Source of the DNA: Anolis carolinensis
Taxonomy: Eukaryota
Reading direction: 5' to 3'
Assembly (NCBI RefSeq): GCF_035594765.1
Contig: NC_085844.1
Span: 228,858,107 to 228,922,106, forward strand
DNA: 64,000 bases
In this document: positions 2,685 through 52,682 of the stretch, one piece after another
Numbering within the stretch: the first letter of the stretch is position 1
Layout: the number at the start of each line of letters is the position of its first letter
Translations under genes and position numbers: made by a program
The notes under the pieces: model-generated
Seen by the model: only the letters and a program-made list of their open reading frames with translations
Told to the model about the DNA's origin: nothing
Database searches by the model: none

Positions 2685-2878
2685 AGGCCACAGTTCAGTG
2701 GTGCAGTATATGCATTACATTTTTTAAAAAGCCCCAGGTTCAGTCTTCAGCATCTCCATGAAGAATTAGAGAAATCTCATAGCTGAAACCCTGAAGAGCC
2801 ATATCACCTATTGAACAAAACACTGAGCTACATGTGCCAATGACCTGATTCAGTATAAAGGCATTTCCTATGTTCCTA
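2685..2878 (+). mobile_element. Old tRNA-derived SINE, Squam3-like
   Basis: Degraded head plus tail ...CCAATGACCTGATTCAGTATAAAGGCATTTCCTATGTTCCT; a second copy on minus at ~53835-53996. Confidence 0.5.
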
Positions 2879-5303
2879 CGAAAGCTCAGAAACATTGCTT
2901 TTGGGACTAGAACTTCCACAATCCTCCAACCAGTAACATGCAGTGCCCATGCTTTGGGAATCTTGTGGTTATAGTCCAAAAAGGTAACATTCTCAAGCTC
3001 TATATTCCTGTTGGAGTTTGTAGCACTTTGAGACTAATCTACAAATGCGTATGTGACCAGTTTTCTCTCCATTAGTCTCAAAGATAATACCAGATCCAAT
3101 AGGAACATAGAGTTTGGTAATGTTACGTTTTTGGGACTATAACTCCCAGATTCTCCTAGCCAACATGGGCCCTGTGCATTTCTCTCTTTCTCTCTATTAG
3201 TCTCAAATGTGTGACAAGATTCCTTTGCCTACTACTGATCCAGACTAACACAGCTATATCATTGAATTCTGGTTCCTTATTGATCTTCAACTGGATGAAG
3301 ATATGGAAAACTTCCAAGTATAATCCTAGACATTTTCTGGATCAACTAGATGTGAAATAAAATGCATATTCTCTTCAATAACCCATTTTTAAAATCCACA
3401 ACAGGACTTCCTTAAGATATGTGCCTCAATAATCAAGATAGCAAATTAAACCAATTTCCAGATAACCAGTCACTAAACAAAGCACATTAAATGAAAGATA
3501 CATAGGAGAGAACATACTATAACAAACTGATATTGTTCATCAGTTGAAGGAGAACCGTTTTCAAAAACAAGTGAAATTATTATCTAGTTTGACCTCACTT
3601 AGAAATTCAGTGCATCATTATGACACACACACACAGCCACGGGCCTTTTCAAAATAAATGACCATCTTATACTTTCTGATTTTATGGATACACATTGCAT
3701 CTGCATTAGCCTTCATATTTACACCTGTTGTTGGTTTTTGAAAGCATGCTGCGGCTAGAAAAAATATGTCGCTTCAAGGCATTAACATGCAAGACCCAAT
3801 TAGCTGCCAAATATGCTAGCGATTTTGAGTCTTTATTTTCCCAAGGTTTGTTATTACCCTGCATAATGCTCCAAGAGCTGCCATATCTTAAGGATGTATT
3901 TTTACATTAGATTTTGTAGACAAGTTCAGTGACTTTAGTATGAAAAAAATATTATGTATGCATATTACATCAGATGCATAAACTAATGTAAAACAATACC
4001 TCTTGTTGAAATACATAGAGACAGTGCCTTGGAAAAGATTGAGTCAACTTTTCCAAATAATTTAAAGGAAAAGAAAAACTTAGAGATTCACAAGTGATGT
4101 GATGGACACCTATGTTATGGTTAGGAATATCCCTCAACTAAGAACACAGCATAAGAAGATGTAATTAGGGCTAAATCCAGGGTTGTTCTCAACTACAGCA
4201 AATCCACTAAAATCAATGGGACATAAATGGTGTCTAAAAAAATCCCAGTCATTCCAATGGGTCTACCCTAATTGTGACTAATACCGACTGTAGCCCTTAT
4301 TCAAATCTAGCCTTAATGGTTGATACAAGCAGAAGCCAGCTCACACAACTTATCTTTCCCTCCTCTCTGCTGTAGTCTGTTGCACCCACTCAATATATGA
4401 AACTGTCTTTTACAGCTCAGTAACTTATTTCCCAGTAGTGAGTTTTTACCAGCAGCAGCTTTCCAAGGTCATCAACTATAAATCCTTTATAGTACAGCTG
4501 TCTTTGAATATTTTGAAAGGAGATGCAAAGAATAAAAATTGGGGTGCATCAACCAAGGCAAAGTGTAAGAGCTCTGTTCCTGAGGTCTCTTATGACAACA
4601 GGTCTCAGCCTCATGCTATAAATTTCTCACTTATAGCATTAAATGTTGTTGTTTTTTTACCATAACACCCACCACTCATGCTAGCCGGCGAGTTTGGGGT
4701 GCTATAGTTTGAAGAGTTACTTTCCCATCTCTGCTCACACTCTGGTTGGAAAACGACTCTTCCGTTCCTCAAATTGTTGAAGGACAAAACAGAGACATAC
4801 CATATAATGTTTAACATATTGTTTCAAAGAAAAGGTTCCAAGTGCATATCAATGAATAACCTTTAAAACCTCAGTGATCCAGTATGACCACAAGAAATGT
4901 TGGCAGTTGGAAGTTTTCCCTGGAACTTGGAAAATACATTTTGTACTATAACAAATCTTAGAATTCTCCAGTAATTCTGGGGACTCTGGGAGTTGTACTC
5001 CAAAAGGTAACTCTTCCAATAAATGCTTTTGGGAGGCAACTTATAACTGCTGTGAAAGGTAGCTATGGACTCAATGTAAAATAAAAACATTACATGCAGA
5101 CTTCAGGTCTGCATGAAACGCCTGAAACCACACATTAAAAAAAATCAACAAATGTGACACTAGCATCAGTCATAAAAACTAAGTTATTGCATTCAGAAAG
5201 ATATACCGGTAATTGCTAGTACTTATATTCCATAAAAAACCCACCAGTGTTCATTATGAGATTTGCCTAAAGAATGATATACTACTATTCATATTTATCT
5301 CTT

Positions 5304-6609: not shown

Positions 6610-7249
6610 TGCTCGTCTCTATAAGGCTAGAACTGGGCGATGACAACTCCCAAAATACTCACACTTCTGAGCAGGATCCCTTCATCTGTTCTCCTTCTCC
6701 TCCATGCCTGCAAGAGAAGAAGAAAAATATTCAGAGAGCTCCTGGTGATTTCCGAGAATCCAACAAGAGCCTCTTCCTTTGTTTGTGGACTGCCGGCTTG
6801 ATCAATTAGTCAGGCAGACATATAAATAGCTGTTAGTATGCCTGGAGGAGCAGCAGGGAGAGTGGACTGGCTGCAAGAACACAGGTCGCTGTTCAGTCTC
6901 CTGGTGCTGAAAATGAACAGAGAGGCTTAAGAACAGCAAGTTGGGAAGGGTGTGAATGTGTGCGGCGGCAGCAGCGGCTGGGATTATTTTGCCATTGGGC
7001 TAATGCAAGACTTTAGTAGAGTCTTTGCCAAATCTTTAAACAGGAGGAACCCATTCTAACGGGGAAGAGTTTCTGAGCCCTGCCTATGAAATGGACTCTC
7101 TGAATATTTGGTTTTCACCCTCTCAGTCAATAACTGTGCTTTCTGTATGGGGTGGCTACTTGATAACCTCTGCAGACTCAAATGAGGGCAATGCCTATTT
7201 TAATTCACTTTGGCCTGATTCAAGTAATATGTATGATGCATTCTCTTCA

Positions 7250-8115: not shown

Positions 8116-10644
8116 TGCCATTCTTTGTAGCCTATACCCTTGCTACATTTGTGGACAAATTCTTTTTCTCAGCTGAAACCTAGCTTTGGTTATATTGATC
8201 AATCATACAAAACCTCAGATTCTTGCTTATTTTATGGAAAGATGTGTTTTCGGCAATTTGCATCCTGTAGGATAATTCAAAACCACATGAAGATAAATAT
8301 TAATCACTAAAACGCAGTTGCGCCCTTTTGTTACTTTGCAACATCCTTCTACATATACATGCTTTAGATTCAGGCTTTATTTGTGAGTGATAATGTTGAT
8401 GTTCCTGTATAAAAAGCAAATACTTGATCAAGCATGTTGTAATACACTTTACAGGCCCTCATCAGAACAATCTCTATGGCAACACCTCTGTGGAAAGTCC
8501 AAAAGGTCAGGCAGCTCTGTTGATATAAAGCAATTTCCAGCCATTTTCACCTCAGCTAGGAGCAGGTCTTTTGTACAGTCACCTCAACATAATTTGGATT
8601 ACAGTAGGAATATTTCAAGAAAGCTAATGATAAAACCACGTTTGAGTATTCCTTGCCTAATGGAATGCTATGTAATTCATGGAGTTGACATTAATCAACA
8701 GGTGACCTGAAGGCACATACACTCACATATTTATTTATTTTCAGCATTAATATCCCATCCTTCTCACCCGAAGGGACTCAGGGTGGCTGATAATAGGGAT
8801 AATGCATAACAATATACATATCATTTGCAAATCATTTTCCCTTTTATGACTGTAAACATTGCATAGGGAAAAGGGGAATCCAAGGGAGATGGTAGATGAT
8901 TCCATAGTTGCTGAAAATAATAAAAAAAATACTTATGCAAATCCAGGTTCTACTTCATCACTGCGTACAACAATATTACACCAAGAAGCCTTGGGTTCTG
9001 GATAAGAACAGATGGATATTGGTCATCTGTGTTGCTGAGATAGTTTGGTTCCCATAGTTATGAATGAAAAGGCTAAAACATCTGAATTTCTTTCTTCTTA
9101 GAAACATAAATAGAAAGGCCAAGTGTACATGTACCATGATGGTCACTTTACAATTCAAACCAAAGTCTCTTATAGATGTTTTTCTTCACACAGACGTACT
9201 ACACACAGTGATGTGCACAGTGAAGGGTGCTTTACTACAATGTTGTTAGAAATTATATACATCACATTTCAACATGATTTACCCCCCCCCCCCCCAATAG
9301 ATGCATATACATATAAATCACAAATAAATCAAAGCAGGATCCCAAGGAATTCAATGTTTGGAAGTATATTAATCTTAAATAGAGAATTAAATCTAGATTT
9401 AGGGTGCATCTACACTGTAGAATGAATGCAGTTTGACATTACTTCAACGGCCATGGTTCAATGTTATGAAATCCTGAGAACTGTAATTTTACAAATTCTT
9501 TTCTGCCAAAGCATGCTAGTACCCCACCAAACTCCAACTCCCAGGATCCTAAAGCATTGAGCCATGACAGTTAAAGTGGTGTCAATTTGCATCTCTCCTA
9601 TAGCATACAGCTAGCCTTATTCGTGCTTAGGGTAAGCCAAGAGATTTGTCACAACCAATTAGTAATTATGAGCTTACCATTGATTTCCACGGGTGTCTTC
9701 AAAGCAGGACTAAGACTGGATCCAATCCAAGAGAATTTGGAGGCTGTTTTTAAAATTTCTTGGTTCTAAAATATTTTTTCAATGGCCCTTTCAGCAACAT
9801 TTCTGTGGCTTGCTTTCTTCTGCCAAGGAGTGGAACCATGACTTTTGAACAAGCTGCCATGATTTGTGCTTCTTAGCTATTCAAGGAAATGTAAACAACT
9901 CTAGTCCCCTTGCACTTGCTTCTCATCTGTCAACTCCTTTCAAATGTAACATGTTACAGCGCAGGCTGCTAGTAGGAGAGATGAGACCATCAAATCACAA
10001 GTCCTGCTTTAGCATGGGTAGCCCTCCTCTACATGGAGAAAGTCTAACCGGAGCCAAGCCAAATGACATTCACAGACTACTATCCCTGTGCATTCAGTGT
10101 GCAAGCTTTTTCAAAGCAATGACAGGCTGATCATGACATTTACATAAACAAATATTGGCAGAGATATTTTCAGGGCCTGAAATTGCAGCAACACCACATT
10201 AAATGTAGATACAGCCTCAGTTTAGGTGGTTAAAATGACCACTTACAACAGAGGTCTCTGGTGGATCCAGTGGGCCCTCCATGGTCCCATCAATATGTGA
10301 TCTGTTTGAGGATCAGGAGAACAGACTTTATATGGTCTTTTGCCTTATAAAGGTCTCTGATGTACAGAATGAATGAGGAAGCGACAGATTAGTTTTCTCA
10401 CATTTAACCAAGGAATGGAGGGGTAAAATTCTACATCAACACACACCCACATTTACAGTGGATAAGAGATTGTATCAGGGATGTTCAAATGAAAGAGATT
10501 GAGTGTGCAAAGGGGTGCGAGTGCATCCACACCTACCTTTAGTGAAACCAATTGGGGGGGGGGGGGAGGGCAACTATTGAAAGAGGCCACATGTTAAGTC
10601 CAGTTTGCTGAAACAGCACAATGGCCAAATAGATGACTCCGCTT

Positions 10645-10741
10645 AAGCGGCTGTGGGGGAAAAGGAAGGGACCTGAGGCTGTTAGGAATGGTGGGAGTTG
10701 GAGTCCAAAATACCTGGAGGGCCCAAGTTTGCCCATGCTTG
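10645..10741. mobile_element. hAT MITE right half
   Basis: Ends AAGTTTGCCCATGCTTG, matches the intact MITE at 32588-32678. Confidence 0.6.
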
Positions 10742-11624
10742 GTGTAGATGCACCCCAACTCTGTGGAATGAGGATTTTCTCTGCCAAAGAATGCTGGTGC
10801 CTCACCATGTTACAGATTCCAGGATTCCATAGGATTGAGCTGTGTTTGCTGCCGCCTCCACTACTGCCTTATAGGGATGCATCCATATTGTAGAATGAAC
10901 CACTTTAAGTGCCACGTCTCAATGCTATGAATCATGGAAATTGTAGTTTAACAAAGTATTTAGCCTTCTCTGCCAAGCAGAGCTGGTGCCTCACCAACTG
11001 CAGCTCCCAGGGTCCCATAGCATGGCCCATGGCAGTTAAAGCGATGTCAGGCTGCATTCATAGAATAATAAAGTTGGAAGAGACCTTATGGGCCATCCAG
11101 TCCAACCCCTTGCCAAGAAGCAGGAAAACTGCATTCAAATCACCCCTGACAGATGGCCATCCAGCCTCTGTTTAAAAGCCTCCAAAGAAGGAGCCTCCAC
11201 CACACTCCGGGGAAGAGAGTTCCACTCCTAAACAGCTCTCACAGTGAGGATGTTCTTTCTAATGTTCAGGTGGAATCTCCTTTCCTGTAGTTTGAAGCCA
11301 TTATTCTGCATCCTAGTCTCCAGGGCAGCAGAAAACAAGCTTGCTCCCTCCTCTCTATGTCTTCCCCTCACATATTTATACATGGCCATCATCATGTCTC
11401 CTCTCAGCCTTCTCTTCTGCAGGCTAAACATGTCCAGCTCTTTCAGCCGCTCCTTGTAGGGCTTGTTCTCCAGACCCTTGATCATTTTATTCACCATCCT
11501 CTGGAAACATTTCAGCTTGTCAACGTCTCTTTTCAATTGTGGTGCCCAGAATTGGACACAGTATTCCAGGTGTGGTCTGACCAAGGCAGAATAGAGAGGT
11601 AGCATGACTTCCCAGGATTTAGAC

Positions 11625-12331
11625 CAGGGGTCCCCAAACTAAGGCCCGGGGGCCGGATGCGGCCCTCCAAGGTCATTTACCTGGCCCCCGCCCTCAGTTT
11701 TATAATATAATATTTTTGTATTAGTTTCAATAATATAATATATTGTATATACATATAATATTGATAATAATATTATGTTATGCAATATAATACTAATAAT
11801 AATACCATATAATAATATTAATTATATGTTATATATTACATATAATATTACAGTATAGTGGTATAGTTCAATATAGTAATATATAATGCTAATATTGTGC
11901 TATGCTAATAATATAATATATTGTATGTACATATAGCTGCTCTGAGCCACCTTCAGGGTGAGAAGGGTGGGATATAAATGTAGTAAATAAATGCAGTAAA
12001 TAATTAATTAATTTTAGACTTAGGCTCTCCCAAAGTCTGAAATGACTTGAAGTCACACGATAACAACAATCCTAACTAACTTGACTATTTCATTGGCCAG
12101 AAGCAGGCCCACACTTTCCATTGAAATCCTGATAGGTTTATGTTGGTTAAAATTGTTTTCATTTTTAAATATTGTATTGTTCTTTCGTTGTTGTTGTTGT
12201 TGTTTCACTACAAATAAGACATGTGCAGTATGCATAGGAATTTGTATTTTTTTTTCAAATGATAATTTGGCCCCACAACAGTCTGAAGGATTGTGGACCG
12301 GCCCTCTGCTTCAAAAGTTCGAGGACCCCTG
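11625..12331. mobile_element. Non-autonomous hAT (Charlie group, OC1/hAT-HT-like) with internal AT-rich tract and L2-type tail
   Basis: TIR CAGGGGTCC(C/T)C; perfect 8-bp TSD ATTTAGAC (11617-24, 12332-39). Confidence 0.9.
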
Positions 12332-12503
12332 ATTTAGACACTAGACTCCTATTTATACAGGCTTTTTTTCGCCATCTCATGACATTGTTGGCTCATGTTT
12401 AACTTGTTGTCCACAAGGACTCCAAGATCTTTTTCACATGGAGGAAGGCGTACTCCATTCTGCATCTTTGCCTTTCATTTTTTCTGCCTAAGTGGAGGGA
12501 GTA

Positions 12504-12825
12504 CAGTAGAATCTCACTTATCCAACATTCGCTTACCCAACGTTCTGGATTATCCAACACATTTTGTAGTCAATGTTTTCAATACATCATGATATTTTGG
12601 TGCTAAATTCATAAATACAGTAATTACTACATAGCATTACTGGGTATTGAACTACTTTTTCTGTCAAGTTTGTTGTATAACATGATGTTTTGGTGCTTAA
12701 TTTGTAAAATCATAACCTAATTTGATGTTTAATAGGCTTTTCCTTAATCCCTCCTTATTATCCAATATATTCGCTTATCCAACATTCTGCCGGCCCATTT
12801 ATGTTGGATAAGTGAGACTCTACTG
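12504..12825. mobile_element. Tc1/mariner MITE nested in CR1
   Basis: Same TIR as 1727-2070, TA flanks. Confidence 0.9.
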
Positions 12826-13149
12826 TATCTTGCATCTGTCCCTGTTGAACTTCCTTTTGTTCGTTTTTGGCCCATTTCTTTAATCTGTTAGGATCGTTTC
12901 TGAATTCTGCTCCTGTCTTCTGGAGTATTCTTTCTACAGTGTAGGTGCACCCAAAGACTACAGGTGTGTTTGTATGTGTGTGGACGTGTTTCCGGAAAGG
13001 AAAGTAAAAGGGATATCAAACTGCACTTATTTTACAAGGGAGATGCACCCAAAGTGGTTAGGGGAGAGGAGAGCGCATTGACACGGAAGATTGACTAAAA
13101 TCATGGCATTTGTTTCCCCTCGAAGAGGGAGGAGCTGAAGAGCCCATCA

Positions 13150-14210
13150 TCCCCCACCAAGCAATGGCTGAGAGAGGAGTCGCCATAACAACCCTCTCCT
13201 TCTTCTCCTTCCTCCTCCTCCTCCTCCTCCCTGCTCGAAGGCAGCCAAGAGAAACAGCTGCCTAGCAGCCTCCCTCGCGCTGTTGCTCAGACAAGATGGC
13301 TTGGAAAAACACAAATCCCGAGGCTTCCTCGCCTCCCAGAAGGGCTTCAGTTTGGATCTGAAGCAGGATCCGTTCCGACGAGTAGGGCACCCCAACATGG
13401 TCCTCCAGGGACGGGGCCAAGAACTCCAACAAGCCCCCTGGGGCGAAGCGGAGATGCTTCCTTCCAGTGGCCTTTCCCGCCCCGGTACCAAAGCAGCAGC
13501 CCCTCCCCTGCCTGCCTCAGTTTCCCCACTTACTTCTTTGGCCGGGAAGGAAGGGGACATGGGCCGGGCGGCTCCTTACATCACGCTCCGGGCGAGGCGG
13601 GCGAGGAGGCAGCCTGGCGAGCTGGCACCGCGGGTTGGCATCCTGCCTTCTTGCTCGCCTTCCTGGCTTGCAAAGGGAACGGGAGGAGGACGCCTTGGCC
13701 AGGCAGGCAGCACCAAATCCCACCGAGGAAGAAGAAGAAGAAGAGCAAAGCGCTACTCCCAGGCTCCAGGATCGATCCAGGATCGATCACCTCGATCGCA
13801 TTTTGCAAGGCGCTCCTCCAAGGGCCTCGGGTGGAAAGGGGTCCTCCTCTGTTTCTCTCCTTTTCCCCAGCTTCTCATCCGCTGCAGCCCAAGCGGGAAT
13901 ACACAGAAGGAGCAGCGCAGATGGAAGACGCCTTCCTTGCTCGCTCGCTCACTCTCCGGGCTCCCTTTCGCTTCTTCTTGGCGGAGATCAACAAGTCCAG
14001 CCTCAGCCTCCGGCTCTGCCCTGCGATTCTGTCCCGGAGTTTTGGTTCGAAAGCATTGGAAGGAAGTTGGGAGCGGAATGGAGAAGGGAAGGGCGCCACC
14101 GTGAGGGCGGACGAGGCATTGCAAGGCGAGCTGATGCTTGTTTGGCTTCTCCCTTCCCTCCTTCTGGAAAGAAATGGGGAAAAATCTTGCGGTTTTTGTT
14201 GGTCCACAAA
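13150..14210 (-). promoter_or_regulatory. CpG island, probable distal KCNB1 promoter / non-coding first exon
   Basis: Only extended GC- and CpG-rich unique stretch in the window; minus-strand donor GAA|GTAAGT at 13533 (weaker GAT|GTAAGG at 13579); candidate acceptor TTTTTCTTCTTCTCTTGCAG at 6708 just 5' of the KCNB1 ATG. Confidence 0.65.
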
Positions 14211-14230
14211 TAAGCAGAGCTTGGGGAAAT

Positions 14231-14482
14231 TGGGTTGCTGTGAATTTCCCGGGTTGTATGGCCACGTTCCAGAAGCATTCCCTCCTGACGTTTCGCCCAC
14301 ATCTATGGCAGGCATCCTCAGAGGTTGTGAGGTCTGTTGGGAACTAAGCAAGTGGGGTTTATATATCTGTGGAAGGTCCGGGGTGGGAGAAAGAACTCTT
14401 GTGTGAATGGTGCAATTGGCCCCCTTGATTAGCATTGAATGGCTTTGCAGCTTCAAAGCCTGGCTGCTTCCTGCCTGGGGAA
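14231..14482 (-). mobile_element. Penelope-like element terminal fragment
   Basis: Closely matches 15826-16090; contains hammerhead motif. Confidence 0.85.
14284..14324 (-). ncRNA. Minimal hammerhead ribozyme motif in Penelope terminal repeat (core intact)
   Basis: Minus strand CCU-CUGAGGA-U-GCCUGC(CAUAGAU)GUGGGC-GAAAC-GUC^AGG: conserved core, 6-bp stem II, palindromic ACGU stem III. Confidence 0.75.
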
Positions 14483-14511
14483 AATTGTTTCTTGGACTAA
14501 TTGAAAAATTG

Positions 14512-15013
14512 TTTCTTGGGCACCACAGTTGAAGGGAGATGTTGACAAGCTGGAAAGCGTCCAGAAGAGGGCGACTAAAATGATTAAGGGTCTGGAGAAC
14601 AAGCCCTATGAGGAGAGGCTTAAAGAGCTGGGCATGTTTAGCCTGCAGAAGAGAAGGCTGAGAGGAGACATGATAGCCATGTACAAATATGTGAGGGGAA
14701 GTCATAGGGATGAGGGAGCAAGCTTGTTTTCTGCTGCCCTGCAGACTAGGACACGGAACAATGGCTTCAAACTACAGGAAAAGAGATTCCGTCTGAACAT
14801 CAGGAAGAACTTCCTCACTGTGAGGGCTGTTCGGCAGTGGAACTCTCTCTCCCCTAGACTGTGGTGGAGGCTCCTTCTTTGGAAGCTTTTAAGCAGAGGC
14901 TGGATGGCCATCTGTCGGGGGTGCTTTGAATGCAATTTCCTGCTTCTTAGCAGGGGGTTGGACTAGATGGCCCATGAGGTCTCTTCCAACTCTACTATTC
15001 TATGATTCTATGA
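14512..15013 (+). mobile_element. CR1 LINE 3' end, young
   Basis: ORF DVDKLESVQKRATKMIKGLE...KRRLRGDMI; tail ATTCTATGATTCTATGA. Confidence 0.93.
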
Positions 15014-15016
15014 CTA

Positions 15017-15290
15017 CAGTTCCCTTATCTGCGGATTCCACATCCATGGATTCAACCACCTGTAGCTTGAAAATATAATCACAAAATCAAACTTTGAGAT
15101 TGCCATTTAATGACACTATTTTGCAATGGTATTTTATATCTGTCAGAGTAATGCGCGTTCCTTCGTTCTGCGCTCAACTGACGTCATTCATCTGCTGCTA
15201 CGCTGTGCGCATTACTCTGACAATATCATGGGTCTTGAGCATCCACAAGGGTCCTGGAACCAAACCGTAGTGGATTTCAAGGCTCTGCTA
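15017..15290. mobile_element. Old Tigger-like MITE (host of the 82-bp element)
   Basis: Reverse-complement similarity to 59059-59295. Confidence 0.6.
15141..15222. mobile_element. 82-bp unclassified TG..CA mini-transposon
   Basis: Perfect 16-bp TIR TGTCAGAGTAATGCGC, 5-bp TSD ATATC. Confidence 0.85.
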
Positions 15291-15335
15291 TATATGCCTT
15301 TAAGTGACTTGTTGATTTATGGGGACCCTATAAAT

Positions 15336-15470
15336 CAGTGGTTCTCAACCTGTGGGTCCCCAGATGTTTTGGCCTTCAACTCCCAGAAATCCTAACAGCT
15401 GGTAAATTGGCTGGGATTTCTGAGAGCTGTAGGCCAAAACATCTGGGGAACCTCAGGTTGAGAACCACTG
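15336..15470. mobile_element. hAT MITE with SPIN-like termini
   Basis: TIR CAGTGGTTCTCAACCTG; perfect 8-bp TSD CTATAAAT. Confidence 0.9.
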
Positions 15471-15492
15471 CTATAAATTTCATAGGGTTTTC

Positions 15493-15691
15493 AGTACTGT
15501 TCCATTATCTGGGTGGAGGCCACGAGGAGGCGCTAGAGAGAAGGATAGACCATTTTACAGAGTAGTGGGTGGGTTAAGGAGTTAAATCATTTCCCTATTT
15601 TCCTGTTATTTCCCCCCACCCATATCCCTGTTGTGGAAACAACCCTCGCTTATGATACGGCAAAAATGGAGAAATGATTTTCATCCTTCAG

Positions 15692-15722
<31 letters not shown>

Positions 15723-15795
15723 ACACACCACAATGGATGATCCTTCTCTCTCTAGCACCCCCTAGTGACCTCCGCCTGAATAATGAAACAGTACC
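15493..15795. mobile_element. MITE with ~30-bp TIRs, tentatively Merlin-like; contains poly-C/(CA)n
   Basis: RGTACTGTTYCATTATYYRGGYGGAGGYCAC inverted termini; flanks GGTTTTC/AGTTTTC. Confidence 0.6.
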
Positions 15796-15825
15796 AGTTT
15801 TCTTAGGCAAGAAATAGTCAGAGGT

Positions 15826-16822
15826 GGGTTGCTGTGAGTTCTCCGGGCTGTATGGCCATGTTCCAGAACGATTACCTCCTGACGTTTCACCCACATCTAC
15901 GGCAGGCATCCTCAGAGGTTGTGAGGTCTGTTGGAAACTAGGCCTGTGGGGGTTATAGATCTGTGGAAAGTCCGGGTTGGGAGAAAGAACTCTTGTCTGT
16001 TTGAGCAAGTGTGGATGATGTAATTGATCACCTTGATAGCATTTGATGGCCTTGTAGCTTCAAAGCCTGGCTGCCTCCTGCCTGAGGGAATGCTTTGATG
16101 GGAGGTGTTGGCTGGACCTGATTGTTTCTTGTCTGGAATTCCTCTGTTTTCAGCGTGTTATTCTTTAATTGCTGTCCTGATTTTAGAATTTTTTTAAATA
16201 CTGGTAGCCAGATTTTGTTCATTTTCATGATTTCCTCCTTTCTGTTGAAATTGTCCACATGCTTATAGATTTCACTGGCTTTTCTATGTATTCTGACATA
16301 GTGGTTGTTAGAGTGGGTCCAGCATTTCTGTGTTCTAAAAAAAATATATGCTGTTGATTCATCAAGTGTTCTGCTATGGCTGACTTTTCTGATTGAGCTA
16401 GTCTGCAGTGCTTTTCATGTTCCTTGATTCGTGTTTGGGCAATGCTGCATTTGGTGGTCGCTATGTAGACTTGTCCACAGCTGCATGGTATACGGTAGAC
16501 CCCTGCAGAGGCAAGAGGATCCTCTTGTCCCTTGCTGAACGTAGGATTTGTTGGATTTTCTTCGTGGGTCTGTAGATAGTTTGTAGGTTGTGTTTCTTCA
16601 TCAGTTTCACTGTGTGCTCAGTGGTTCCTTTGATGTATGGTAAGGACAAATTTCCTCTGGGTGGATCTTGTGGTTTGTGCCTGGCCTTCTGATGTCTGTT
16701 GTTGAGTATCCATATATGTAGGTGAAACGTCAGGAGAGAATGCTTCTGGAACATGGCCATATAGTCCAGAAAACTCTCAGAAACACAGTGATTCTGGCCA
16801 TGAAAGCCTTTGACAACACATT
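15826..16822 (-). mobile_element. Penelope-like element, truncated, GIY-YIG endonuclease remnant with inverted terminal repeat
   Basis: Minus-strand LPYIKGTTE...LQTIYRPTKKIQQILRS, then GVYxxPCSCGQVY in a shifted frame; inverted pLTR piece at ~16712-16822; flanking duplication TCAGAGGTG. Confidence 0.88.
15878..15918 (-). ncRNA. Second minimal hammerhead motif in Penelope terminal repeat (core intact, G-U at base of stem II)
   Basis: Minus strand CCU-CUGAGGA-U-GCCUGC(CGUAGAU)GUGGGU-GAAAC-GUC^AGG. Confidence 0.7.
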
Positions 16823-16903
16823 ACTCAGAGGTGGTTTTGCCAGTTCTTTTGAAATATAGCCTATACTGTTGGGGATTGTAGATGATAAGTAGAAGTTCTT
16901 ATA

Positions 16904-17176
16904 TGTGCCCATGAAGCCAGAGTCACCCTGCAGAATGATGCACCATTCAGCTTTGCAGAATGAATAACACAGGAACCTTTACTAAGTCCAAGAGATTAAC
17001 AGAACAATGGTATTTACAATAATCCCTCTGATTACTTACAGAAATCAGCAGTCAGAAGCAATCCTTTCTTAGTCCATAAATCTGCTTCAGTGAAGACCAG
17101 CAGCAAACAAGGCCTCAGAAATAGTCAGGCCTCTCTGAGTATAGAGCCATCTTCTTCCCAGCCAGTACTCAGTAGA

Positions 17177-17210
<34 letters not shown>

Positions 17211-17354
17211 AAGAAACCTGTTCAAACCTGTTCTCCAGCAGCAGGACAGCAACAGTTGCAAACCCATTCCCAGGTCCTTGCAAACTGAGCCAATCGGCTT
17301 TATGCATTTGATTTTCTGGTTAACATACATATAGTATCTTTGCAAACCATGACA
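16904..17354. mobile_element. Possible solo LTR (Gypsy-like)
   Basis: TGT...ACA ends with TATA on both sides; internal (CT)n(CA)n; boundaries uncertain. Confidence 0.35.
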
Positions 17355-19464
17355 TATATCACCTGGTATTAGTTGATTTCCCTTCCAAGATTTTACCAGG
17401 GCCAAGGTTATTTAACTTCCAGGAACAAATGAGATCCTGGTGCCTATAGACGCCAGCTTAAAAGATCAGATTGCATAGTGTCTCTGTTTTAAAGATTCAT
17501 CCTCCCAGCTATGTTGGACTGGCTCTCATAGTTCCCAGCCAGTATAGTAATGTGGATAGCCCTGGAAAGCACCTGGAAGTTAAAAGCTGAAGCAGCAATC
17601 TATGGAAAAGAGTTGCTCTGAGGCATTGAATCCAGATAGATGCTGCCAACCAGAAAAGTCAGTATTTGGCTATATAAGCCAATAATAAGGCCAGCTTAAG
17701 GTGGCACCCTCTGAGCTGGAATTCTAAATGCCTTGGAAGCTTACAATAGAAACAGGTGTAGAAAAAAATCTTCTTAAACATATTCTCAGATCCTGAAAAA
17801 ATTACTTGTTAGCATGGCCAAAAGCTAAAAGCAATACAGATAACGACTATCCTGGTAAGGATCCTAGGGACTGTCATCCAAGAAAATAACTTTTCCACAC
17901 ATTCCCATCAACACACCTGCAGTTCTGTACTTATGAGGAAGTTCCTAAGTAATATAACATGAATTCCTGACAGGGTAAATTGCCAGAATTTCTTATTAAG
18001 ATAGAGAGCCAAAACCGGGGGGGGGGGGGGGGGGGGGAGGATGCAACAGGGATAAATGGAAGCTACAACATCTTGGCAGGACAAATGAAACTCACAAATA
18101 TAGGTTGGGTGACACCTAGGTACAAGTAAGAAGGATAGTAGTATTCTTAGTAGAATGCAAGTTGAATATGAATTTATAGTGTGATGAAGTCACCAAAAAA
18201 AGCTAAAGACTACAGTTAATTTAACAACATGTTGGTCCAGATGTTCAACATTCAGACTGAACAATTTGGCATTGAAGCAAACATATATCTTACCTCTTAT
18301 AGAAGTTTTGGAATATCTGCCCAGCAATAGCATATGATGATTGACAGAAAAATAGTGGAGATATATCAACAAATCAAGAAACAGATGTCATTAATGGAAA
18401 ATAATCAAGCACACACCAAATAAAAATTATTCATGTTGAATTTTTCCATTACATTTCAGATTGTTATTAATTGTGAGTGCCAGTTGATTGATGGTAGAGT
18501 CAGAATGCCCTTTAAATACTTACTTTGCTTTATCTTGGGATTCCTAAGAGTTTAATAACTTTGAGGCGTCTAAACTTTTCCTTGATTTGGAACATTTCCC
18601 CTTTAGCATGGCTCTACATTTCTTTGCCCTTACGGAACACCTTGGATTGTTTTCTTCATAGACCAACGGCCTTTGGCTCTCTCCAGTTGTCACCTTGTTG
18701 ACAGTCATTCCCCTCTATCTACCCAACTCAGCTGATTATTACAAGAACTGTCACTTAAAGAAGTCTATTAAGTGTCATGTCTTCTGGATATTCTGCTTTC
18801 AAGCTTGTTTTTGATGCTTCCATGCTACTTGGTGGCTTCTTTTGGCTAAAGAAGGAATAAAAATGATGATGATGTTGATGATAATGTTGATGCTGCTGAT
18901 ATGATGATAGGGAAAACACCTATGGGCCTTCCACTTGCCTGTGTCACTGAAAGTGAGGTTGGTCTGAACTTCATAGGTAGCAGAGCTCTACCAAATACTC
19001 ACAGTCTTATGTTTGCATTATCTTTCTACTAACAGATAACTTATTAGCAAAAGGTATTGTCCAACTTGATCCCTATCAGTGTATAATAAGTGTCAATCTA
19101 CAAACCACAGTAAATGATGTAATTATGTTCAAAATGGCTCACAGCCTACATTTAATAAGTAAGTAAGTAAAACTTTATATATATACTGCTCTATCTCCCT
19201 GAAGGGACTCAGGACAATTTCCAACAATAAATACAAACAACATACAGTTCATAAACAGCACAAAACACATTATTAAACAGGATAAAACCAAGTACAACTA
19301 AAATAACAATAAGCGACAGTCACAACAACCTTGTGTATTTGTTTAGAGGAGTCAAGCCAATGCAAAGCTGTATCTTGTGCTGCACTAACTATACATGGTA
19401 TTTCAATTCTGCTGCCTGGTGATGTCTTGTTGGGGTCTTATGCATATAAGTTCCCTATAGAAAT

Positions 19465-19731
19465 TGATCCACTATGGCGCAATGGGTTAAACCCTTGTGC
19501 CAGCTGGACTGCTGACCTGAAGGCTGGGTTGCTGACCTGAAGGTTGCTGGTTTGAATGTGTGAGATGGGGTGAGCTCCCATCTGTCAGCTCTAGCTTTTG
19601 GGGACATGAGAGAAGCCTCCCAGCAGGATGGTAACTCATTTGAGTGTTCCCTGGGTAATGTCTATGTAGATGGCCAATTCTCTCACACCAGAAGCTACTG
19701 GTTCTCAAGTCGCTTCTGACACGATAAAAAA
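19465..19731 (+). mobile_element. tRNA-derived SINE with putative Vingi-type tail
   Basis: A-box TGGCGCAATGG, tail GTCGCTTCTGACACGAT(A)n, 8-bp TSD ATAGAAAT. Confidence 0.8.
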
Positions 19732-20291
19732 ATAGAAATGGGTGATAATTTTTGTCCTATGCATAGCCTCTGTATTCAATTCAAGGTTGCGGAAATGGAG
19801 TTGCACAAGGAGGCACATTTAAAGCACAGTAAATAATCTTAATCTTAATTTTAAATTGTATGCTAGTGCTTTTATGTTAAGATGCTTTGAGTCTCCTTCT
19901 GGAGAAATAAAATGGGGTAATAATAATAATAATCATCATCATCTCCCCCAACTCTGTAAAAATTACAAAGAAAAATTAATGGGGTAGAGATTCTGCTATT
20001 CTACCTCTATGTGGACAAACATGGTTTTTGTATTCCCTGGAAACAACTATCCAGCAGAGCAGAAGAAATCACATTAAGTCAACTTGTTTATGTGCAAACA
20101 TGCACTGAATTGTACTGTAAAACTATCACAATCTCTACACGGGGTCTTTTTCACCATGTCAGAAACCTTTAATCTGGCATGTAAACTATTTTGATTTTTG
20201 TTCTGCTAAGTATGATGGCTGAAGAAGAGGTCTAATGAGTTTTCCATACTCCCCACAAAGTGTTTCCTTATTATGCAGTTAAGTTAGCTCA

Positions 20292-29244: not shown

Positions 29245-30145
29245 TATTTTATTTATTTACAGTAGAGTCTCACTTATCCAGCATTCGCTTATCCAACGTT
29301 CTAGATTATCCAACACATTTTTGTAGTCAATGTTTTCAATACATCATGATATTTTGGTGCTAAATTTGTAAATACAGTAATTACTACGTAGCATTACTGC
29401 ATATTAAACTACTTTTGCTGTCAAATTTGTTGTATAACATGATGTTTTGGTGCTTAATTTGTAAAATCATAACCTAATTTGATGTTTAATAGGCTTCTCC
29501 TTAATCTCTCCTTATTATCCAACATATTCGCTTATCCAATGTTCTGCCAGCCTGTTTATGTTGGATAAGTGAGACTCTACTGTATTTATTTAGGATATTT
29601 CTATCCCACCTTTTTCCACAATGCAAACCCAAGGCAGCTTACAAACAGAACACAAACATTAACATCCTTCAATCAGGAAAACAAAATAGATAAAACCATG
29701 ATAAAACAACAGTCAATAAAATCCCACATTTCAGTTAAAACCATAACCTCTTCCCCAGTGTATCCTCCTCCATCCTGATCACAAAATCCCCAACTCCTAC
29801 CATGGCTCAATTAAAGGCCTTGTTAAATAAGAAAGTCTTAATCCCCTTCCTAAAGCTGAGTAAAGATGGAGCAGCTCTTAGTTCTTCAGGGAGGGAGTTC
29901 CAGAGGGCTGGGGCTGCACCCAAGAAGGAGCCTTCTCTAGTTATGGGTAAACACATATTGGTGCGGGCTCGTGTGTAGATTCGAGTTTCCCTGCTTGATC
30001 TAAGTTTGTGTCCTGGGATGAAATGGGGGACACAGTGATCCAGATAAGCTGGACCTAAACCATATAGGGCTTTATAGGTGATGACCAGCACCTTGAATTG
30101 AGCCCGGAACCGGACAGGCAACGAATAGAGCTGCTTCAGGATAGG
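29245..30145 (-). mobile_element. L2 LINE 3' fragment
   Basis: ORF PVRFRAQFKVLVITYKALYGLGPAYL...APALWNSLPEELR...KTFLF; (TTTA)n tail split by the MITE at 29260. Confidence 0.88.
29260..29582. mobile_element. Tc1/mariner MITE inserted in the L2 tail
   Basis: TIR CAGTAGAGTCTCACTTATCCA, TA flanks. Confidence 0.9.
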
Positions 30146-31377: not shown

Positions 31378-31525
31378 CTACTGCTCTTTCAGTTTATATC
31401 GAACTATGACATCAATTTCTGGCTGCAACATTCCAAAGCCATAGCGTTCCTTGTCAAAGTCTGGTATCTTTGCCTTAGGATCTTTCAGTTCCAAATCAAA
31501 GTATGTTAAGAAGAGAAAAATGCAC
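31378..31525 (-). CDS. PTGIS: Prostacyclin synthase exon 10, coding part to TAG (CIFLFLTYFDLELKDPKAKIPDFDKERYGFGMLQPEIDVIVRYKLKEQ*)
   Basis: Read manually; TTTCAG acceptor, frame continues from exon 9, RYGFGMLQPE motif, stop at 31380-31378. Confidence 0.95.
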
Positions 31526-31762
31526 CTGAAATGATAAAATGATCAGATCAGTAAGGCCTAAGCTGCATAAATATTTTGGATTCATATAAAGCAGTTACAA
31601 ATATCTCTGGATAGTCTGAATATAATTTCAATAGAACAAATATTATAGAGTTGGCCCTCCAGATTTGGTTTAGATTTCTGTAGATCTGATTACAATTTTC
31701 TCTCAATGATCCTCCATTCAAACTCCATGGTTGACCATAAAGTCCTGATGGAGGACCTAGAC

Positions 31763-51560: not shown

Positions 51561-51777
51561 AGGGTTGTTGTATGTTTTCCGGGCTATTTGGCCATGTTCC
51601 AGAAGTATTCTGTCCTGATGTTTTGCCCACATCTATGGCAAGCATCCACAACCTCTGAGGATGCCCACCATAGATGTGGGCAAAACGTCAGGAGAGAATA
51701 CTTCTGGAACATGGTCATACAGCCCAGAAAACATACAACCCTGTGATCCCGGCCATGAAAGCCTTCAACAACACATT
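51561..51777. mobile_element. Penelope solo inverted terminal-repeat pair (hairpin)
   Basis: Two pLTR pieces in inverted orientation; hammerhead cores mutated. Confidence 0.85.
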
Positions 51778-52682
51778 AAACATTTCTTACTATCTCCAAA
51801 CATACATTTTTAGCAGAAGAAAATTGGGGGGGGGGGGACAAGGGCATTTTGGGAAGTTGGAGGTCCCTGGAGGTGCACTGGACTTCCGCACTGGACTTCC
51901 AAACTGGACATATAATTCCCATTTTTCTGTCTTGGGGCACCAGATATAGTTAGCTTACATTCTTAAGGTTGAAAAAGATCATAAGCAATAGTCAGCAAGA
52001 TGTTTTCTCCCACAAAATGTATTTCTCTATTTTAATTATTGGCTATGAAAACTAGTAGGCTAGAAATGCCTCATACAGTTTATTCTCTTTCCTTAAGGTA
52101 AAGGTAAAGGTTTTCCCTGATGTTAAGTCCAGTCATGTCTCTTTTCTTACAAATATTCTAATGGACAATCAGAATTACGTTTTTGAGCCAGTAGATGATA
52201 CTGAAAGGTTACACAATGGTGCCATCTACTGCTCGTAGGTTTCCTCTTTCCTTCATTACATTGCAAGAAGATTTAGTTCAGCCTCCTTCAACCTGTTCTC
52301 CTTAAAGATGAACAAATATATTCTGGCATAATCTACTTGTGATAGAATAGACTGTAGATTGTATAACATAATATATCTGTTGGTTGTTATGGTGCCACAT
52401 GACTTTTTGTTGTTTGACTCCAACAGTCTAACAGTTTCCCTGCAAATACCACTCCTATCAGCCCTAAATGCCCAGTGGTGAGAAATTACACGAGTTACAT
52501 CCAGAAACATCTGGAGAGCTGCAGTTCTCCATTGTTGAATTACGTCCATTTAAGTAGAAGAACAAGAACACCACAAATAAACAACCATATTTAACTGTTA
52601 CTGCAAAACTTAGGAGACCATTAAATCGAGAATCTCCCGGTTTGACACTTCAATATGACAATTCTTGGCCATTAACACCAAC

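What the first reader, a model, noticed from the sequence alone, without database searches (positions are those of the whole stretch)
14284..15918. Tandem same-strand hammerhead ribozyme pair just upstream of the KCNB1 CpG island
Seen: two Penelope terminal repeats each carry an intact CUGAGGA...GAAAC-GUC core on the minus (KCNB1/PTGIS) strand, predicted cleavage after 15881 and after 14287 (1594 nt apart); the proximal one is ~75 bp from the island edge. Stem III is just the palindrome ACGU with no loop. Established: Penelope-like elements encode such minimal hammerheads, which are proposed to cleave as dimers via the palindromic stem III. Inference: two independent insertions have assembled a dimer-competent pair; a minus-strand RNA crossing it (upstream initiation or PTGIS read-through) could be cut twice, stopping read-through into the KCNB1 promoter and releasing a ~1.6-kb retrozyme-like unit. 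Stem I is only 3 bp and the distal copy has G-U at the base of stem II, so activity may be weak.
Basis: partly seen in the sequence, partly recalled or inferred. Interest (0 to 1): 0.7.

Follow-up and report, generated by a model that had tools for sequence, protein, structure and literature searches.

The report
Two decayed lizard Penelope ribozyme copies
These are two separate, worn insertions of a very common lizard jumping gene, each with a known type of tiny self-cutting RNA motif, and their position beside the KCNB1 gene's CpG island is likely chance rather than a working read-through barrier.

Summary
The motifs are real and where stated: two minimal type I hammerhead cores on the minus strand, C17 at 15881 and 14287, 1,594 nt apart. 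Both lie in terminal repeats (pLTRs) of a Poseidon-type Penelope-like element. Its geometry matches anole PAc, whose hammerhead is published, cuts in vitro only with its protein, and showed no RNA-seq ends at the cut site (PMC11167929). The genome holds 20,917 copies with intact core and stems; 9 same-strand pairs within 1.6 kb occur among the first 100 listed. Each copy here has its own target-site-duplication-like repeat and about 5-10% decay. The spacer is a patchwork of a CR1 fragment and four small inverted-repeat elements, so the 1.6 kb unit is not a retrozyme. PTGIS ends 15.5 kb upstream, behind 9 AATAAA sites. No excess conservation of the ribozymes remains once the ascertained core is removed (P about 0.18). 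One oddity: both copies share two rare letters (about 1% by chance), hinting at early gene conversion. Expression and cleavage are untested. The scan has reported this family several times on other DNA of this genome. Verdict: ordinary passengers.

The parts
15878..15918 (-). Distal minimal type I hammerhead: stem I CCU/AGG, core from 15915, stem II with G-U at its base, C17 at 15881; element ATG at 15909 opens stem II
14284..14324 (-). Proximal minimal type I hammerhead, C17 at 14287, G-C at base of stem II, both CpGs kept
15825..16090 (-). Distal pLTR, ending at ORF nt 85 (short end, no tail)
16100..16700 (-). Decayed 3' ORF fragment of the element with a GVY...YI endonuclease-like motif, spread over several reading frames; about 87% identical to its best genomic relatives
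   Evidence: Pfam did not detect GIY-YIG
16710..16823 (+). Inverted pLTR piece with the tail (ends at ORF nt 118-121); lacks the CUGAGGA half of the core
15818..15827 (-). Downstream copy of the 10-nt flanking repeat of the distal insertion (partner 16825-16834), read as a target-site duplication
16825..16834 (-). Upstream copy of the 10-nt flanking repeat of the distal insertion
14231..14482 (-). Proximal solo pLTR with a 14-nt internal deletion, TATA-like word at 14365, ending at ORF nt 85
14222..14232 (-). Downstream copy of an 11/12-nt flanking repeat of the proximal insertion (partner 14476-14487, one T longer), likely a target-site duplication
14517..15013 (+). 3' fragment of a CR1-like LINE in the spacer (name CR1 recalled from its sequence; repeat status shown)
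   Evidence: hits up to 96% identity
15141..15222 (.). Very young palindromic element with perfect 16-nt terminal inverted repeats, nested in an older diverged repeat that runs to about 15290
   Evidence: many hits of 94-100%
15336..15470 (.). Hairpin MITE with 8-nt target-site duplication (15328-15335 and 15471-15478); hAT-like by duplication length (recalled)
15494..15794 (.). Older MITE with 48-nt terminal inverted repeats; best genomic hits 83-84%
13431..14200 (.). CpG island, inferred to hold the KCNB1 promoter and a non-coding first exon (donor-like GTAAGT at 13533; acceptor-like site at 6708 before the coding exon)
   Evidence: exon assignment is inference

Best explanation
The two hammerheads are built-in parts of two separately inserted, decaying terminal repeats of a Poseidon-type Penelope-like retrotransposon, and they likely sit here as inert passengers with no selected role at KCNB1. 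Shown: motif, anatomy, copy number, own flanking repeats, foreign spacer. Inferred: the element's endonuclease cut two sites about 1 kb apart at different times; reverse transcription began inside the element RNA (ORF nt 85, and nt 118-121 for the inverted piece), which copies the ribozyme into every stub; younger elements later widened the gap. Any RNA crossing the pair would rarely be cut, because each monomer lacks stem III, a dimer rests on 3+4+3 base pairs across 1.5 kb, and the published family member needed its protein.
For: 20,917 copies with intact stem I, core and stem II, one per 88 kb. 9 consecutive same-strand pairs within 1.6 kb among the first 100 listed; two are over 1 kb apart (L012 1,410 nt, L013 1,109 nt) with spacers unmatched by the EN+pLTR query. 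Separate flanking repeats. Spacer of unrelated repeats, one likely older than the pLTRs (best hits 83-84% against 87-90%). Decay typical of the family: 26 and 14 change events in about 267 columns, end branches 0.087 and 0.045 against a median of 0.061. Module changes 2 of 82 against 38 of 452 in flanks; without the ascertained core 2 of 52, P = 0.18; 21 of 39 long copies also have at most 2 module changes (part of that panel was picked for intact motifs). Geometry equals PAc: cut 26 nt after the start codon, tail end at ORF nt 118 (against PMC11167929). PAc hammerhead: no cleavage without protein, no RNA-seq reads ending at the site, cleavage not needed for insertion in vitro. Minimal hammerheads cut weakly even as dimers and trimers (PMC4209133).
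Against: Only 4 of 27 unselected module-spanning copies match the strict pattern and 5 of 27 the core-only pattern, so two intact neighbours are a few-percent event before allowing for ascertainment. Over all 82 module sites the deficit of changes is P = 0.03 (binomial) or 0.07 (Fisher); an earlier count that scored a deletion base by base gave P = 0.002. Both copies share two rare letters. A pair this close to a promoter island is uncommon: 0.06 to 9 expected genome-wide, depending on assumed promoter number and distance. No expression, cleavage or cross-species data were obtained.
Confidence: 0.86

Rival explanations
1. One reading: the two copies work as a double hammerhead on a minus-strand RNA, cut it twice, shield the KCNB1 promoter from read-through and release a 1,594-nt unit that could circularise.
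For: Both cores and stems are intact, in the sense orientation and next to the island. The dimer is topologically possible as a nested fold. Dimer activity is published for minimal hammerheads, though low (PMC4209133), and is strong for canonical axolotl ones (PMC7229834 passages).
Against: PTGIS stop is 15,497 nt upstream with 9 AATAAA and 15 ATTAAA between. The ACGU duplex is only -1.7 kcal/mol, -3.1 with dangling bases. The family ribozyme needs the element's protein. Hundreds of similar pairs are expected by chance. The spacer has no paralogue and is not a repeat unit. No significant constraint after ascertainment.
Confidence: 0.04
2. The proximal pLTR matters as DNA, not as a ribozyme: its TATA-like promoter points into the KCNB1 island and gives a minor upstream start, with the element's ATG as an upstream reading frame.
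For: TATA-like word at 14365, about 165 nt from the island edge, in the KCNB1 direction. pLTRs are thought to hold promoters (PMC11167929; PMC3846280 passage). The copy keeps several CpGs. An open frame runs from the element ATG into the island (13875-14771).
Against: The TATA-like word is a standard part of the family (listing). No start-site data. CpG retention is expected next to an unmethylated island without any function (inference).
Confidence: 0.05
3. The two copies are not fully independent: an early short gene conversion, or templating from the neighbour, copied letters between them, including the stretch that holds the ribozyme. This is compatible with the best explanation and implies no function.
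For: Both carry C at 15974/14380 and G at 15875/14281. G is in 264 of 17,389 copies; of 52 long G copies only these two have the C; 19 long copies have the C at all. 6 of 435 pairs in the main subgroup share two exclusive letters, this pair included. The 60 columns up to the G differ at only 2 sites. The inverted piece of the distal insertion has the ordinary A, so the G likely arose after insertion.
Against: 4 unlinked pairs also share two exclusive letters. The copies are only 87.6% identical overall and do not group in the tree (low support). The sites were picked after the fact.
Confidence: 0.3

Closest known systems
PAc / Poseidon_Ac Penelope-like element of Anolis carolinensis and its hammerhead (Frangieh et al. 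2024, PMC11167929)
   Same: ORF starts at stem II; cut site 26 nt after the start codon; core C3/G8 before the ATG; ends at two internal sites about 33-36 nt apart, the outer at ORF nt 118; endonuclease-like 3' ORF next to the pLTR.
   Different: These are truncated, 5-10% decayed stubs with no RT region. Direct alignment to the published consensus was not possible: the GenBank supplement could not be read and the three readable files held none of four search words.
Minimal type I hammerheads of metazoan PLE pLTRs (Cervera and De la Pena 2014, PMC4209133)
   Same: No loop 3, palindromic positions 15.2-16.2, extra base between 9 and 10.1, long stem II, short stem I; dispersed mostly as single motifs from truncated elements.
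   Different: Stem I is 3 bp rather than 4-5; the distal copy has G-U instead of the conserved G10.1-C11.1; the two motifs flank foreign DNA, not an ORF.
Non-LTR retrozymes (PMC7229834; bioRxiv 10.64898/2026.07.22.740005)
   Same: Two same-strand type I hammerheads could in principle cut out the RNA between them.
   Different: Retrozymes are tandem repeats of about 150-450 bp with a ribozyme in each unit, present in many copies and seen as circles. This unit is 1,594 nt, apparently single-copy, and made of unrelated transposon pieces.
Endonuclease-bearing PLE insertions with an inverted pLTR, tail and target-site duplication (Arkhipova et al. 2013, PMC3846280)
   Same: The distal insertion has an inverted pLTR piece with tail at one end, a direct pLTR at the other and a 10-nt flanking repeat.
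   Different: Only the last 600 nt or so of the ORF are present.

Membership tests
Minimal type I hammerhead of PLEs | Core CUGANGA ... GAAA, NUH triplet | tested here: met
   both copies
Minimal type I hammerhead of PLEs | Loopless palindromic stem III; extra base after A9; stem II of 6 or more bp | tested here: met
   ACGU, U after A9, 6-bp stem II; pair probability 0.73-0.99 proximal, 0.48-0.71 distal
Minimal type I hammerhead of PLEs | G10.1-C11.1 closing pair | tested here: met
   Met in the proximal copy; the distal copy has G-U, as do 11 of 27 panel copies
Minimal type I hammerhead of PLEs | Self-cleavage | not testable with these tools
   Folding gave no discrimination
Poseidon-type PLE (PAc) | Start codon at stem II, cut 26 nt after it; ends at the two internal reverse-transcription start sites | tested here: met
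   against the text of PMC11167929: 26 nt; ends at ORF nt 85 and 118-121
Poseidon-type PLE (PAc) | C-terminal GIY-YIG endonuclease next to the pLTR | tested here: inconclusive
   GVY...YI motif visible and 64% identical to a longer frame in L024, but Pfam gave no GIY-YIG hit; the motif name rests on recall
Poseidon-type PLE (PAc) | Sequence identity to the Repbase consensus | not testable with these tools
   GenBank supplement unreadable
Non-LTR retrozyme | Head-to-tail repeat unit of about 150-450 bp with a hammerhead in each unit | tested here: not met
   1,594-nt spacing; only the pLTR is repeated; spacer is CR1 and MITE pieces
Non-LTR retrozyme | The unit occurs in several genomic copies | tested here: not met
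   Two spacer stretches (211 and 265 of about 1,340 nt) searched: best non-self hits 84%, or only the 82-nt young element (40 candidates scored in each)
Non-LTR retrozyme | Expressed as linear and circular RNA | not tested
   No reads were laid on the stretch

The most novel reading that the evidence does not exclude
A chance pair of retrotransposon ribozymes, kept alike by gene conversion, has been co-opted at the KCNB1 promoter: upstream minus-strand RNA is cut by a long-range double hammerhead, perhaps only in cells that make the element's protein, so that transposon activity would gate read-through into a neuronal potassium-channel gene and release a host-derived 1.6-kb circle.
Probability: 0.03. 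Interest if true: 0.8.

Novelty: already known. Interest (0 to 1): 0.12.

Why it matters
As it stands, little: it is two of about 21,000 intact copies of a published ribozyme family, and a reminder that in this genome same-strand pairs arise by the hundred. If the novel case held, it would be a vertebrate example of a retrotransposon double hammerhead co-opted as a transcriptional barrier, and would give a natural single-copy substrate for the open question of whether minimal PLE hammerheads cut in vivo. A search for 'KCNB1' with 'hammerhead' found 0 papers, and 'Penelope', 'hammerhead', 'Anolis' found 1.

Tried and rejected
Rfam: no hammerhead family hit at gathering score or E up to 10; the microRNA-like hits at 15336-15470 are the hairpin MITE. 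One search used a wrong loop length (6 instead of 7) and found 29 deletion variants; one search replaced it. Sequencing runs: no RNA holder listed, which is no evidence on expression; no reads were laid, so expression and insertion polymorphism stay open. Folding: the active-like monomer lies 7.5-9.1 kcal/mol above the ensemble, but that is mid-range among 34 other intact copies (medians 7.3 and 9.5), so my idea that the shared G deepens a misfold was not supported. The constrained dimer had P 8e-19 for this pair but 7e-22 and 1e-21 for natural tandem arrays and 3e-51 for L013; with no active control this cannot rank the pair and is not counted as evidence. One old element split by later insertions: rejected, since each copy has its own flanking repeat and a spacer element looks older. 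Retroposed unit from a donor locus: no donor found (partial coverage). A minor subfamily with both rare letters: not found. The Fisher P of 0.002 was set aside because it counted a 14-nt deletion as 14 changes and ignored common CpG decay. Pfam did not name the endonuclease or the PTGIS pieces. One search (co-option of ribozymes against read-through) gave only general reviews; listing seen only.

Full report
Observation. The minus strand carries two CUGAGGA...GAAAC-GUC motifs with C17 at 15881 and 14287, inside a direct repeat with 1,594-nt spacing. Stem I is 3 bp, stem II 6 bp with a 7-nt loop, stem III the palindrome ACGU; the distal copy has G-U at the base of stem II. KCNB1 and PTGIS were confirmed against PDB chains. 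The CpG island runs 13431-14200 by my scan. A donor-like site at 13533 and an acceptor-like site at 6708 suggest a non-coding first exon of KCNB1 in the island (inference). The proximal cut site is 7,678 nt upstream of the KCNB1 ATG. The true start site is unknown.

Identity. The genome is 1.85 Gb, and the element's geometry matches PAc of the green anole: the cut site lies 26 nt after the start codon that opens stem II, and the copies end at ORF nt 85 and, for an inverted piece, 118-121. PMC11167929 (parts 1 and 2 of 4 read; three readable supplements searched without a hit, GenBank file unreadable) reports reverse-transcription starts 111-118 bp into the ORF, a 30-40 bp tail between two start sites, a hammerhead that shows no cleavage without the protein, no RNA-seq reads ending at the site, and no need of cleavage for insertion in vitro. 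PMC4209133 (parts 1 and 2 of 4) defines these minimal motifs, found most as single copies from truncated elements, and saw no monomer and low dimer or trimer activity. The species name is inferred from this match, not given by a tool.

Anatomy. The distal insertion is 15825-16823: inverted tail piece, a decayed endonuclease-like 3' ORF fragment about 87% identical to its best relatives, and a pLTR, bounded by a 10-nt direct repeat. This is the layout described in PMC3846280 (passages seen). The proximal insertion is a solo pLTR, 14231-14482, bounded by an 11/12-nt repeat. The spacer holds a CR1-like fragment, an old diverged repeat with a very young 82-nt palindromic element inside, a hairpin MITE with an 8-nt duplication and an older MITE (family names recalled). 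The older MITE's best hits are 83-84% against 87-90% for the Penelope pieces, so it likely predates them.

Base rate. An exact 40-mer has 17,389 matches; a pattern that needs stem I, core and stem II has 20,917, 0.72 expected per 64-kb window. Among the first 100 listed matches (3.6 Mb of C1, denser than average) there are 9 consecutive same-strand pairs within 1.6 kb; 7 lie in tight arrays or clusters and 2 are over 1 kb apart. In those two (L012, L013) the spacer is not matched by my EN+pLTR query, and L012's holds a CR1 piece. Poisson alone gives about 188 pairs. With an assumed 10,000-20,000 promoter islands and 100-1,000 nt of reach, 0.06 to 9 pairs like this one are expected, so one example needs no special cause, though it is not common.

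Selection. In 600 kb of unselected DNA, 27 copies span the module; 4 match the strict pattern and 5 the core-only pattern. Both copies here being intact is thus a few-percent event, but intactness is why they were reported. Counting indels once, the module has 2 changes in 82 sites against 38 in 452 flank sites (P 0.03 binomial, 0.07 Fisher); without the 15 core sites per copy P is 0.18 and 0.41. 21 of 39 long copies also have at most 2 module changes; that panel mixes best hits, motif-picked loci and unselected DNA. The proximal copy keeps the module's CpGs, which closeness to an unmethylated island would explain without selection (inference). I find no firm sign of constraint, with low power.

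Oddity. Both copies share C at 15974/14380 and G at 15875/14281. The G is in 264 of 17,389 copies, the C in 19 long copies, and only these two of 52 long G copies have both. In a 30-copy subgroup, 6 of 435 pairs share two exclusive letters: this pair, one same-locus pair and four unlinked pairs; 11 more divergent copies were left out of that count, and with all 41 it is 8 of 820. So chance is about 1%, after the fact. The inverted piece has the ordinary A. Early gene conversion between neighbours is the simplest non-chance reading; it implies no function.

Mechanism at the RNA level. A monomer has no stem III. The dimer needs cross-pairing of 3, 4 and 3 bp over 1.5 kb; the ACGU duplex is -1.7 kcal/mol. 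Folding models could not separate this pair from natural tandem arrays or its monomers from 34 others, so they are not used as evidence. A crossing RNA is needed: the PTGIS stop is 15,497 nt upstream of the distal site with 9 AATAAA and 15 ATTAAA between. No RNA data were examined (one search listed no run on record as RNA), so transcription is open.

Comparison. It works like, and by geometry belongs to, the PAc pLTR hammerhead family. It fails the retrozyme tests of short tandem units and multi-copy unit (PMC7229834 passages; bioRxiv 10.64898/2026.07.22.740005, part 1 of 5). Earlier scan notes on other DNA of this genome reached similar readings; none lies near this place. They are not independent support.

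Verdict. Observation confirmed, interpretation partly supported. Most likely two inert, decaying stubs (0.86). Functional double hammerhead about 0.03-0.04, pLTR as minor promoter about 0.05. Novelty: already known. Interest 0.12.

Noticed in passing
window 51562-51778: A further head-to-head fold-back stub of the same element (two pieces, one with tail); both hammerhead cores fail the search pattern.
   Followed up: partly
window 15141-15222: Very young 82-nt palindromic element with perfect 16-nt terminal inverted repeats and many 97-100% copies in the genome; it makes a small CpG-rich patch.
   Followed up: partly
window 14481-14495 and 14505-14519: Exact 15-nt duplication with a 9-nt spacer at the junction of the CR1 fragment and the proximal pLTR; ten of its letters also match element sequence just upstream of the distal pLTR, so the proximal 5' boundary is uncertain.
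   Followed up: partly
L015:1029-1628, L016:1314-1932, L014:527-1185: Short tandem arrays of pLTR pieces (220, 173 and about 80-nt units) with intact hammerheads in several units. These fit the non-LTR retrozyme layout far better than the pair in this window.
   Followed up: partly
window 6708 and 13533: Strong acceptor-like site about 100 nt before the KCNB1 ATG and a donor-like GTAAGT in the island suggest a non-coding first exon and a 6.8-kb first intron.
   Followed up: no
window 31378-31542: Last coding exon of the PTGIS-like gene, ending in a stop at about 31378; first downstream AATAAA at 29590.
   Followed up: partly
L026:1-975 and 2745-3578: A copy of the element lies between GC-rich open stretches, which may be another insertion in or near a CpG island.
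   Followed up: no
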